DNA of 64,000 nucleotides, taken from positions 14,088,276-14,152,275 of the forward strand of contig JAUZTB010000071.1 in NCBI GenBank assembly GCA_034780895.1. The letters run 5' to 3'. Positions 21,001-24,000 of this stretch are shown here, piece by piece. Position 1 is the first letter of the stretch; every line of letters begins with the position of its first letter. This stretch comes from Rhynchobatus australiae (taxonomy: Eukaryota). Position numbers: made by a program.

Positions 21001-24000
21001 GTGCTACACGTTCTTACCACTCTCTGAGTAAAGCTGTTTGTATCGAGCTCCTTACTGGATTTATAAAGTACTCTCTTACATTGATAGCCACTTAGATTGG
21101 AGTCTCCAATATGAGGAATGACCTTTCTAAACCCTTAACAATTTTACAAATTTCTTATTGGGTCACCTCTCAGTTTTCTCTTTCTCAAGCCTCAGCCACC
21201 TCGGCCTCTATTAACGGTTAGAGCCTGTCAAAACAACTATCCTCCTGGCATATTTGCTTTGCACTTTGTTCAGTGCTTTCACATCCTTTTCTAACATGGA
21301 GATCAGCACTGTGTACTGTACTCCTAACTGCAGTCTAACCAAGAGTCCTTAATTTTTTTGGACTTAAAATACGTAAATTTAGTTTTTCAAAAAACATATC
21401 CTTCCATGCTGACATCTCCCTAACCGACCGCTCAGCTAACATTCTTTTTGCTGGAACTATAATTCTCGAATTATGTAACGCAACCGCGGCGTACGTCACC
21501 TCAGAACTGTACATTAAAAGAACGCACTCATTGGCTGTGAGAGCCATCAATCACCGAATCGGTGCCGTATCATTGTCTACTGCGAGTGTCAATCATACTC
21601 CTAGCGTCTCATTAGTCGTTGGAGGAGTCACTCAAAGTGCAGCCTGGACTATGGCGCGCCCAGATCTCGAGAAGCTCAGAAGGCGGAAGTGTGTTACTCA
21701 CTAAAAACATATTAAAATAAATAAAAGTAAAGTTTCCAAAACATATTACTACAACCTAATCTATTTTTGCTAGAATCTAAGTCAATCTATACACCTTATA
21801 TGAATGGCAATGCTATTTCTATATTTAATGCAGGTTCAAGGGAATGTTGTCCTATAAATATATCTTGACGCAACTGTAGTGTTATGTAAAATATTGCACA
21901 CTGAACTCCTTCACACGTTATCTTTTAATGTGGCTCCATTTATAATGTCTTACTGTTTTTCAGATTCTTTCTATCTGGTGTCTTTATAAATTGAGAATCA
22001 ATAAACCGAAAAGTGTAATTTCGCTCCTCCATGTTTCAATCCGCGCAGACTGTGAAAAGGGGCAACGCTCTTGGCTTTTTACAGTTGTCCTACAATCTCA
22101 AAAAACGAACCCGACGATGCACCGTGCCAGTTTAATTGCTGACGATATATCGTGCCAGTTTAACCCCAAACCTCCCTAGCATTATTTGTAGGGAAATATA
22201 AATTAAGCAAACATATTGCGTGATCGGCAGTGGTCCAAATCCCACATTAATTAACATTAGTTGTTTTGCTGAAGTGTTTATGCTAAAAACGAAACTAAAA
22301 CTACAAAAAGCTTCGCGCAAAAGTTGGAAACACTTTTCGTTTTCCTTTTGCAGCGGGCCGGCTCGTGTTTTTTTAAAGGCACCAAAGTCTTCCATATCCC
22401 TTGCATCTAATTTTTTTTTTCCAAATCAAGTTTAATGCATTAGGAATCTTTGAGAAAACCCGCTCATTACCTCCAGATCCCCACTTCCAAATGAGTCCTG
22501 GGCTTTTTTTTCCAAAGTGGCTGACAGCGGGACGGTCACGTTGATGCAAGGGTAAAAAAACAGTCCAGAGGCAAACACAAGTCCCCCGTCCTGCCAGTTG
22601 CAGAATTAGATCGAAAGTAAAAGAAGAGGCCGGAAGACTGGAAATTCCCCCCTTGCGATTTGTTTTCGTGTTTGTTCCTCAGAATTTACAACATCGCCTG
22701 GGCGGGACCCGATCGCCGACTGCGGAAGTCTTTCGCAAACTTTCATTGGCCGCATCGTTTTCTCGGAAATTCATTTTCAGTTTTCACTTCCCTGTTCGCC
22801 CGGCAGCGAGCGAGTGAGTCAGTGTCCATGTCAGTTTCAGCTCCGCCGAGCTCAGCCACCTTGCGCCAGACTCAGCTGGGCGCAGTTGTCAAATATTGTG
22901 GACTCTTGCTATTGGATTGCTCCCTTAGAGGAAAAGAAAGTAACGTATACTTTCCTTGAAATAAATGTTTTAAGGAGACAGGGTTTAACGTTTTAGTTTC
23001 ATATGCTTTGCAGATTTTTTTAAAAAAATCAACAAACTACAGAACTCTGTTAAATTGAAATGTAAGTGGCGAATGGATGTGAAATGCATTCTTTGGCCCA
23101 GACTGACTTGTTAGCACAGAACAGGGCTTTTCTTAAAATAGAAACCCACCCGCATCAACTGTAGTTTTCTTGCGGCTCCTTGAACTGCTAACCGCGGACA
23201 CAGATTGGCTTCTTAAACGAAGGCCGGTGTCTCCGCGCGTCTGCGCCCCAGTGGAGCAAGGTTTCCAGCACCTCTTCACTCTAACGCAATTGTTTCTTGT
23301 TGCGTGCCATTTGCAAACTAATGAAGACTTCAGCAACAGATGCTGAATTCAGAACTCTGTCCCGCAGTCGCTGGTAACTTGCGATGCAGAACTAGGTACC
23401 GTTGCTGTGCCATTTCACCTACATCTCCACTGCACGCCTGTCCTGCTTCTTCGACTCTTTCGTGGGATGTGGGTAGCACTCGCAAGGTCCATTGCCTATT
23501 CCAGAATGGCCCTTTGAAGGGAAGTACATTGCTAGACCATCCGATGGAAGAGATACAAGTCATCAACAGTCTTATGGGGACAGAATATTGCAAAGCCCAG
23601 AGCAAGGATGCGGGTAATACTGGAGAAACAAAGGACTGCAGATGCCGGGATCCGGATGAAAAAGACGATGATGCTGGAGGAACTCAGCAGGCCGGGCAGC
23701 ATCCGGGGAGGAAAGCAGGTGGTCAACGTTTCGGATCAGGTTTTGACCTGAGACGTTGACCGCTTGCTTTTCTCCACGGATGCTGCCTGGCCTACTGAGT
23801 TCCTCCAGCATCATCGTGTTTCGCAAGGACCTCCCTTCCCAAAGGGCTTTAGTGGATCTTTTGTGAGAAGATCCAATGGTTACATGTTCATCGTTACCAA
23901 TACTAGCTTTTATTTGTTTGCATGAAATTAATTGAATTGCAATTCCCTAGCTGTGGGAATTTGAACTCAAGTCTCCAGGCCATTAATCCAGCCTCAATGT

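What the first reader, a model, noticed from the sequence alone, without database searches (positions are those of the whole stretch)
21400..23500. Orphan CpG-rich double promoter hidden in the intron that splits the ETV4 ETS domain
Seen: this is the only clearly CpG-retaining, largely repeat-free tract in an otherwise CpG-depleted window. It holds two distinct motif clusters about 1 kb apart and is gap-free contiguous with the last two ETV4 exons. I found no coding exon that it would serve. Established: CpG retention in vertebrate genomes marks germline-hypomethylated promoters. Inference: it drives an unannotated nested or antisense transcript, an internal ETV4 isoform, or both bidirectionally.
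Basis: partly seen in the sequence, partly recalled or inferred. Interest (0 to 1): 0.7.

Follow-up and report, generated by a model that had tools for sequence, protein, structure and literature searches.

The report
Orphan CpG island in ETV4-like intron
A 2.4-kb stretch inside a long intron of an ETV4-like gene has kept its CpG dinucleotides while the rest of the window lost them, which marks it as an ordinary "orphan" unmethylated island that probably starts non-coding transcripts or regulates the host gene.

Summary
Window 21400-23500 has 91 CpG and CpG observed/expected 0.93. The rest of the window is at 0.16-0.18, and no other 2.1-kb stretch exceeds 0.31. The tract lies in a 22,354-nt intron, on the minus strand, that splits the Ets domain of a PEA3-group gene whose C-terminal tail is ETV4-like.

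- It has no paralog inside the window, no terminal repeats, no Pfam domain, no Rfam family and no tRNA.
- Apart from CpG, its composition is that of the host.
- A repeat copy at its right edge keeps CpGs that sister copies elsewhere have turned into TG/CA. This points to local protection from methylation.
- Two motif clusters about 1.2 kb apart each carry an extended CCAAT box and a CGGAAGT site.

That it acts as a promoter is plausible but untested. I found no coding exon and no excess of splice donors, and no transcript, methylation or orthologue data were available. My best reading is an intragenic orphan CpG island of a well-known class. It most likely initiates non-coding transcription and may also act as an ETS-responsive regulatory element. 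Interest is low to moderate.

The parts
21372..23822 (.). Whole CpG-retaining island (about 2.4 kb). The left edge is sharp; the right edge fades inside a repeat copy.
   Evidence: CpG positions and o/e.
21425..21690 (.). CpG block A, motif cluster 1. It holds a D-box-like site (21471), a CRE half-site (21493, -), an extended CCAAT box (21528, -), two TGATTGAY sites (21546 and 21588, -), ATGGCG (21651) and CGGAAGT (21684, +).
   Evidence: 19 CpG in 21400-21700, o/e 1.06, GC 0.492.
21701..22000 (.). AT-rich spacer, GC 0.287, 2 CpG, o/e 0.33.
22007..22364 (.). CpG block B. It includes a 23-nt near-duplicate at 22113-22135 and 22141-22163.
   Evidence: 21 CpG in 22001-22500, o/e 1.06.
22461..22881 (.). 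CpG block C, motif cluster 2. It holds GGAAGT cores (22483 -, 22786 -), CCGGAAG (22630 +), a GGAAATTCC/NF-kB-like site (22640), a GC box (22700), CGGAAGT (22723 +), an extended CCAAT box (22743 -) and TGAGTCA (22815).
   Evidence: 26 CpG in 22501-22900, o/e 0.98, GC 0.515.
22901..23150 (.). Second AT-rich spacer, 3 CpG, o/e 0.39.
23151..23481 (.). CpG block D, with no motif cluster recognised.
   Evidence: 20 CpG in 23151-23500, o/e 0.87, GC 0.517.
23661..23821 (.). Palindromic repeat copy (78-nt arms, 87% complementary) at the island's right edge. It belongs to a family repeated in the window and keeps CpGs that other copies lost.
17937..40290 (-). Host intron, 22,354 nt including 1,192 N in five runs. 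It splits the Ets domain.
   Evidence: Exon borders read; N runs.
40291..40460 (-). Exon with the end of the PEA3 N-terminal region and Ets profile positions 1-39.
17835..17936 (-). Exon with Ets profile positions 30-72.
15485..15706 (-). Last coding exon (end of the Ets domain, C-terminal tail and stop codon).

Best explanation
The tract is an intragenic 'orphan' CpG island. It is DNA that has stayed unmethylated in the germ line for a long time, so it has not lost its CpGs, while the surrounding gene body is methylated and CpG-depleted. This step is inferred from composition, not measured.

Two of its four CpG blocks carry the TATA-less motif set typical of CpG-island core promoters (CCAAT/NF-Y, ETS CGGAAGT, GC box, CRE half-site). 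I think it most likely serves as one or two start sites for non-coding transcripts inside the intron, sense or antisense to the host gene. The ETS and AP-1-type sites would make it responsive to ETS factors, possibly including the host's own product. That second step is inference only.
For: - CpG o/e is 0.93 against a background of 0.17 +/- 0.05, with a matching lack of TpG/CpA excess.
- A repeat copy at the island edge has CpG where outside copies have TG/CA: 22 of 27 aligned site comparisons are TG/CA, 2 are kept and 3 are other. These comparisons are not independent, since both arms hit the same copies. A sister copy 1.2 kb further right (24961-25046) has 0-1 CpG.
- The CpG-free 4-mer make-up is within the window's range; 7 of 92 other windows are as far from background.
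- There is no in-window paralog, no long terminal direct or inverted repeats, and no TE or other credible Pfam domain.
- Motifs: extended CCAAT boxes, 2 inside against 7 outside (0.95 vs 0.12 per kb); CGGAAGT, 2 inside against 1 outside.
- Literature: 42-44% of mammalian orphan islands show transcription initiation, and their products are thought to be mostly non-coding (Illingworth 2010, passages read). 46-57% of unmethylated islands away from gene 5' ends overlap ncRNA starts, putative enhancers or transcribed regions in mouse and zebrafish (Long 2013, passages read). A cartilaginous fish shows the vertebrate pattern of global methylation with regulatory elements exempt (Peat 2017, passages read).
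Against: - There is no direct evidence of transcription, open chromatin or methylation state.
- Splice-donor-like sites (>=8 of 9 consensus positions) are not enriched: 1 on the plus strand and 0 on the minus strand in 2.6 kb, against window rates of 0.31 and 0.44 per kb.
- GC skew shows no promoter-like switch.
- CpG-containing motifs are bound to be commoner in a CpG-rich tract, so only the CCAAT, TGASTCA and TGATTGAY counts are free of that bias, and those numbers are small.
- The hairpin copy has itself lost 3 of 12 CpG positions across its two arms, so protection at the edge is partial.
- Copy number in the rest of the genome is unknown.
Confidence: 0.5

Rival explanations
1. The island is unmethylated but acts mainly as a distal regulatory element of the host gene, without a stable transcript of its own. 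It would be a CpG-island-type (poised) enhancer or a Polycomb-bound region of a developmental transcription-factor locus.
For: - The host is a developmental ETS transcription factor gene.
- Broad unmethylated islands are enriched at transcription-factor and developmental genes and carry H3K27me3 (Long 2013).
- Orphan islands are components of poised enhancers (Pachano 2020 preprint).
- The tract holds two TGATTGAY (PBX-type) sites, a TGAGTCA site and several ETS cores.
- No exon or donor signal was found.
Against: - Enhancer-linked islands are reported as shorter and less CpG-dense than promoter ones. This one is 2.4 kb with o/e near 1.
- The CCAAT, GC box, ETS and CRE set is the classic proximal-promoter set (recalled general knowledge).
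- The motif calls are consensus matches only.
Confidence: 0.28
2. It is the promoter of an unrecognised nested protein-coding gene whose exons are short, lack Pfam domains or lie in the assembly gaps.
For: - There is a housekeeping-type motif set and an ATG in an A-3/G+4 context at 21653, next to ATGGCG.
- Five N runs (1,192 nt) in the same intron could hide exons.
Against: - None of the 10 longest ORFs in the tract matched Pfam below E 0.1; the one match listed is YtiC at E 0.13, 12.8 bits against a cut-off of 27.
- Of 87 ORFs of 60 aa or more across the intron, the only credible hits (Ets, ETS_PEA3_N) belong to the host's own exon ORF. The other three families are at E 0.0067-0.0093.
- The longest ATG ORF in the tract (139 aa, 23340-23759) runs into the repeat.
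- The ORF from 21653 stops after 17 codons, and I read only a weak donor (6 of 9 consensus positions, by eye) before the stop.
Confidence: 0.07
3. It is an internal promoter of the host gene that gives a short isoform made of the last two exons.
For: Cluster 1 lies 3.5 kb upstream of the next exon on the same strand, and both extended CCAAT boxes read CCAAT on the minus strand, the host's strand.
Against: - The product would start inside the Ets domain (profile positions 30-72 onward) and could not form the domain.
- A search for the phrases 'ETV4 internal promoter', 'ETV4 alternative promoter', 'ETV4 antisense' and 'ETV4-AS1' found 0 papers.
Confidence: 0.04
4. It is a young insertion (a transposon, a retrocopy, or organelle or foreign DNA) that has not yet had time to lose CpG, or else an assembly artefact.
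For: Genome-wide copy number could not be tested. The AT-rich spacers show that the tract is heterogeneous.
Against: - No in-window copies.
- No LTR or TIR pair at the borders.
- No credible Pfam domain, transposon-type or other.
- No mitochondrial tRNA and no open stretch longer than 96 codons under table 2.
- Host-like CpG-free 4-mer make-up.
- No plasmid match.
- No N within 9 kb on either side.
- A moderately diverged repeat copy at its edge (arms 87% complementary) still keeps CpG. This fits protection better than youth.
Confidence: 0.08

Closest known systems
Orphan (intragenic) CpG islands / non-methylated islands of vertebrates (Illingworth 2010, PMC2944787; Long 2013, PMC3583005)
   Same: It is a CpG cluster far from any recognised gene start, inside a gene body that is otherwise CpG-depleted. 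It has promoter-type motifs. It has the low GC content that makes such islands escape classical callers in cold-blooded vertebrates.
   Different: The methylation state, H3K4me3 and initiation, which define the class experimentally, are not measured here. The island is made of four blocks with AT-rich spacers rather than one continuous block.
Orphan CpG islands attached to poised enhancers (Pachano 2020 preprint, 10.1101/2020.08.05.237768)
   Same: It sits in a developmental transcription-factor locus, remote from the gene's start, and has a mixed set of transcription-factor motifs.
   Different: Those islands are described as shorter and less CpG-dense than promoter islands. This one is long, with o/e near 1. 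No enhancer marks are available.
TATA-less CpG-island core promoters with NF-Y, ETS, Sp1 and CRE sites (general knowledge, recalled)
   Same: Each cluster has an extended CCAAT box plus a CGGAAGT site. Cluster 2 has a GC box within 45 bp of both.
   Different: No transcription start, first exon or downstream gene could be identified.

Membership tests
Classical CpG island (length >=200 bp, o/e >=0.6, GC >=50%; criteria as quoted) | Length >=200 bp and CpG o/e >=0.6 | tested here: met
   2,101 bp at o/e 0.93; o/e 0.82 over 21001-23750.
Classical CpG island (length >=200 bp, o/e >=0.6, GC >=50%; criteria as quoted) | GC content >=50% | tested here: not met
   The whole tract has GC 0.434. Only the sub-blocks 22501-22900 (0.515) and 23151-23500 (0.517) pass.
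Non-methylated island | DNA unmethylated in vivo (Bio-CAP or bisulfite) | not testable with these tools
   Only the evolutionary footprint is available: CpG o/e, TpG/CpA, and CpG retention in the repeat copy at the edge.
Orphan CpG island | Remote from any known gene start | tested here: inconclusive
   The island spans 21372-23822. That is 3.4 kb from the nearest recognised exon (17835-17936) and 16.5 kb from the exon at 40291-40460. No other coding exon was found by Pfam. No annotation or transcript data exist for this window.
CpG-island promoter | Transcription initiation (capped RNA, RNAPII, H3K4me3) | not testable with these tools
   No expression or chromatin data are available.
CpG-island promoter | Proximal-promoter motif set | tested here: met
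   Extended CCAAT boxes at 21528 and 22743, CGGAAGT at 21684 and 22723, a GC box at 22700 and a CRE half-site at 21493. These are matches to recalled consensus strings, not proof of binding.
CpG-island promoter | First-exon signal (splice donor downstream) | tested here: not met
   There is 1 site with >=8 of 9 consensus positions (23061, +) and none on the minus strand. That is no more than the window-wide rate.
Transposable element or retrocopy | Terminal repeats, multiple copies, TE protein domains | tested here: not met
   Copy number was tested within the window only; genome-wide copy number is not testable here.
PEA3-group ETS gene (host), ETV4 orthologue | Ets domain split over three exons | tested here: met
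   Pfam Ets positions 1-39 (E 3.3e-10) and 30-72 (E 2.1e-16) on two separate exon ORFs. The top PDB hits for all three exons are ETV1, ETV4 or ETV5 chains.
PEA3-group ETS gene (host), ETV4 orthologue | Closer to ETV4 than to ETV1 or ETV5 | tested here: inconclusive
   The last exon's best hit is ETV4 4co8 (9.5e-30), but that chain is the longest. The middle exon's best hit is ETV4 5ilu (6e-19), against ETV5 at 4e-18. The first Ets exon's best hit is ETV1 4avp (1.4e-24), against ETV4 at 1.6e-20. No tree was built and no synteny was found.

The most novel reading that the evidence does not exclude
The island is an ETS-driven control module that the gene keeps inside its own DNA-binding-domain intron. 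The ETS and AP-1-type sites would let the PEA3 factor (or FGF/ERK signalling) switch on divergent non-coding transcription. The plus-strand transcript would run antisense to the host gene and straight through the adjacent 78-bp-arm inverted repeat, giving a long hairpin RNA that feeds back on the host gene in cis or through small RNAs.
Probability: 0.08. Interest if true: 0.6.

Novelty: new member of a known kind. Interest (0 to 1): 0.3.

Why it matters
If the tract is confirmed as unmethylated and active, it would be one more intragenic orphan island. It would also be a handy marker for an unannotated transcript or a regulatory element of a PEA3-family gene in a cartilaginous-fish-like genome.

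Its low GC content (0.434) shows why standard island callers would miss it. The repeat copy at its edge gives a neat internal control for local protection from CpG decay. It does not open a new question by itself.

Tried and rejected
- **RNA genes:** the Rfam gathering scan of the whole window gave 0 hits. The permissive scan of 20500-24500 gave 5 sub-threshold hits, all on the palindromic repeat at 23659-23824 (for example MIR8643, 55.4 bits against a cut-off of 135). They reflect hairpin shape, not family membership. ARAGORN found 0 tRNAs.
- **Coding exons:** none of the 10 longest ORFs in the tract matched Pfam below E 0.1; the one match listed is YtiC, E 0.13, 12.8 bits against a cut-off of 27. 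Of 87 ORFs of 60 aa or more in 18000-40300, Ets and ETS_PEA3_N each matched one member, which one search shows to be the exon ORF. Three further families had E 0.0067-0.0093.
- **Organelle or foreign origin:** no mitochondrial tRNA, open stretches of at most 96 codons under table 2, host-like 4-mers, and no plasmid match.
- **Transposon borders:** no terminal repeats.
- **GC skew as a promoter sign:** flat and uninformative.
- **Splice donors:** no excess.
- **Neighbouring gene downstream of the host:** nothing recognisable by eye among 69 ORFs of 55 aa or more in 1-14000. This was not tested further.
- **Upstream host exons:** one weak ETS_PEA3_N hit (E 4.9e-4) among 148 minus-strand ORFs of 40483-64000. 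Seven guessed ORFs were all negative, so it remains unlocated.
- **Literature:** the phrases 'ETV4-AS1', 'ETV4 antisense', 'ETV4 internal promoter' and 'ETV4 alternative promoter' gave 0 papers. 'ETV4' + 'intragenic' + 'CpG island' gave 20 papers. Judging from the listing of 10, none is about an island inside ETV4. 'Etv4' + 'intronic enhancer' + 'FGF' gave 8 papers. Judging from the listing of 6, none is about an enhancer inside Etv4.
- **Not used:** structure prediction, complex prediction and the protein atlas, because no credible protein emerged.
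Full report
**Observation**

The window is strongly CpG-depleted overall (494 CpG, o/e 0.20, GC 0.399). One tract stands out. Window 21400-23500 holds 91 CpG at o/e 0.93 and GC 0.434. In contrast, 1-21000 is at o/e 0.18 and 23751-64000 at 0.16. The 496 overlapping 2.1-kb windows outside the tract average 0.168 (sd 0.047, maximum 0.31).

TpG and CpA are at 1.12 and 1.07 of expectation inside and at 1.3-1.36 outside. This is the mirror image expected if CpG loss outside is due to methylation. 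The left edge is sharp (CpGs become dense between 21372 and 21425). The right edge fades at about 23822, with a weak tail to about 24965.

Inside, the CpGs form four blocks: 21425-21684, 22007-22364, 22461-22881 and 23151-23481. They are separated by AT-rich, CpG-poor spacers at 21701-22000 (2 CpG) and 22901-23150 (3 CpG). As a whole the tract fails the GC>=50% rule of classical island callers. Only 22501-22900 and 23151-23500 pass it.

**Host gene**

Three minus-strand exons encode a PEA3-type Ets domain.

- The ORF around 40291-40460 matches Pfam Ets positions 1-39 (E 3.3e-10). It also matches the last 22 positions of ETS_PEA3_N (23.3 bits, below the 30-bit cut-off). Its best solved relative is ETV1 4avp (1.4e-24), followed by ETV4 and ETV5 chains.
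- The ORF around 17835-17936 matches Ets positions 30-72 (E 2.1e-16). Its best relatives are ETV4 chains (6e-19).
- The last coding exon, 15485-15706, best matches ETV4 4co8 (9.5e-30), though that chain is also the longest.

Exon borders were read from the sequence (AG/GT sites). The intron between the first two exons is 17937-40290, which is 22,354 nt including 1,192 N in five runs. The island spans 21372-23822, so it lies 3.4 kb from the exon at 17936 and 16.5 kb from the exon at 40291.

There is no N between 11261 and 30180, so the island is contiguous with the last two exons. The N runs were left untouched. The name 'ETV4' rests mainly on the C-terminal tail, and orthology against ETV1 and ETV5 is not settled. 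I do not take the window for human.

**What the tract is not**

- It has no other copy in the window (blastn E<=1e-3; matches begin only at 23618).
- It has no terminal direct or inverted repeats at its borders.
- Its 10 longest ORFs gave no Pfam match below E 0.1. The one match listed is YtiC at E 0.13, 12.8 bits against a cut-off of 27.
- Across 18000-40300, of 87 ORFs of 60 aa or more, Ets and ETS_PEA3_N each matched one member. One search shows both belong to the exon ORF at 40213-40482. Three other families were hit at E 0.0067-0.0093.
- The longest ATG ORF in the tract (139 aa, 23340-23759) runs into a repeat.
- Rfam at gathering scores finds nothing in the whole window. At E<=1 the only hits in 20500-24500 are five sub-threshold matches on one hairpin repeat. 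No tRNA was found.
- There is no mitochondrial tRNA, and under table 2 no open stretch exceeds 96 codons.
- Its CpG-free 4-mer make-up lies within the window's own range; 7 of 92 other windows are as far from background.
- It has no match in the plasmid collection.

A young insertion, organelle DNA, contamination or a misjoin is therefore unlikely. Genome-wide copy number could not be checked.

**Internal control for local protection**

A palindromic repeat (arms 23661-23738 and 23744-23821, 87% complementary) sits at the island's right edge. It belongs to a family whose 16-nt core occurs 10 times in the window at up to 3 mismatches, against 0.74 expected.

At CpG sites of the edge copy, the aligned copies elsewhere show TG or CA in 22 of 27 site comparisons, CpG in 2 and other bases in 3. 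These comparisons overlap, because both arms match the same copies. A sister copy only 1.2 kb further right (24961-25046) has 0-1 CpG.

Within the edge copy, 3 CpG sites are shared by both arms and 3 are CpG in one arm and TG/CA in the other. Decay has therefore begun there, as expected at an island shore. This pattern fits position-dependent protection from methylation better than youth of the sequence.

**Promoter-like content**

Matches to recalled consensus strings cluster in two places about 1.2 kb apart.

- Cluster 1 holds a TTAYGTAA site (21471), a TGACGT half-site (21493), an extended CCAAT box (21528), two TGATTGAY sites (21546, 21588), ATGGCG (21651) and CGGAAGT (21684).
- Cluster 2 holds GGAAGT cores (22483, 22786), CCGGAAG (22630), GGAAATTCC (22640), GGGCGG (22700), CGGAAGT (22723), an extended CCAAT box (22743) and TGAGTCA (22815).

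Extended CCAAT boxes number 2 inside against 7 in the other 60 kb. CGGAAGT numbers 2 against 1. CpG-containing motifs are expected to be commoner in CpG-rich DNA, so only the CpG-free motifs count as independent, and those numbers are small.

Against a spliced first exon, donor-like sites with at least 8 of 9 consensus positions number 1 (23061, +) and 0 (-). The window rates are 0.31 and 0.44 per kb. GC skew shows no switch.

**Comparison with what is known**

In human and mouse, about half of all islands are remote from annotated starts. Of these orphans, 42-44% show initiation, rising to 60% in human when H3K4me3 is counted. Intragenic orphans are the ones most often methylated in somatic tissues, and their products are thought to be mostly non-coding (Illingworth 2010, passages read).

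Across seven vertebrates, unmethylated islands, not computed islands, mark promoters. Away from gene 5' ends, 46-57% of them overlap ncRNA starts, putative enhancers or transcribed regions. Broad ones at transcription-factor genes carry H3K27me3 (Long 2013, passages read).

Orphan islands also belong to poised enhancers, where they are shorter and less CpG-dense than promoter islands (Pachano 2020 preprint, abstract and section 3 read). The elephant shark has the vertebrate pattern of pervasive methylation (Peat 2017, passages read).

Nothing in the searched library concerns an island, antisense RNA or internal promoter inside ETV4. The four phrases gave 0 papers, and only the listings were inspected. 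Supplementary files, which might list such islands, were closed.

**Verdict**

The tract is best filed as an intragenic orphan CpG island, a new member of a common and well-described kind.

My odds are:
- about 0.5 that it initiates mainly non-coding transcription from one or both motif clusters;
- about 0.28 that it works chiefly as an enhancer or Polycomb-type element of the host gene (the first two are not exclusive);
- 0.07 for a hidden nested coding gene;
- 0.04 for an internal host-gene promoter, disfavoured because the downstream exons encode only half an Ets domain;
- 0.08 for a young insertion or an artefact.

Deciding among these needs methylation, capped-RNA, chromatin and orthologue data that were not available here.

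Noticed in passing
window 23661-23821, with related pieces at 5039-5104, 13785-13897, 14598-14639, 18880-18947, 24961-25046, 31442-31577 and 38027-38093: A palindromic repeat family. Its core 16-mer occurs 10 times at up to 3 mismatches against 0.74 expected. The copy at 23650-23830 folds into a near-perfect stem of about 80 bp (-145.5 kcal/mol, z -19.4). It draws sub-threshold Rfam hits to plant miRNA families, which reflect hairpin shape only.
   Followed up: partly
window 22113-22135 and 22141-22163: A 23-nt near-duplicate (87% identical, 28 nt start to start) inside CpG block B, ending in the same 13-nt string. It might be a paired binding site.
   Followed up: no
window 40483-64000, minus strand: One of 148 ORFs of 38 aa or more gives a weak ETS_PEA3_N match (E 4.9e-4). 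It is presumably a further upstream exon of the host gene. It was not located, and seven guessed ORFs were negative.
   Followed up: partly
window 40291-40460 versus 15485-15706, minus strand: The first Ets exon is closest to a human ETV1 chain, while the middle and last exons are closest to ETV4 chains. The paralogue name therefore rests on the C-terminal part.
   Followed up: partly
window 24368-24635 and 60959-61235; 25169-25323 and 2774-2926: Two further dispersed repeat pairs (69% and 77% identity) lie just right of the island. The 24500-25000 stretch has mildly raised CpG (o/e 0.53).
   Followed up: partly
window 1-14000: No recognisable neighbouring gene downstream of the host gene's last exon, judged by eye among 69 ORFs of 55 aa or more.
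   Followed up: no
window 18756-18796: A perfect 17-nt tandem repeat, 2.4 copies, in the intron 0.8 kb upstream of the exon at 17936.
   Followed up: no
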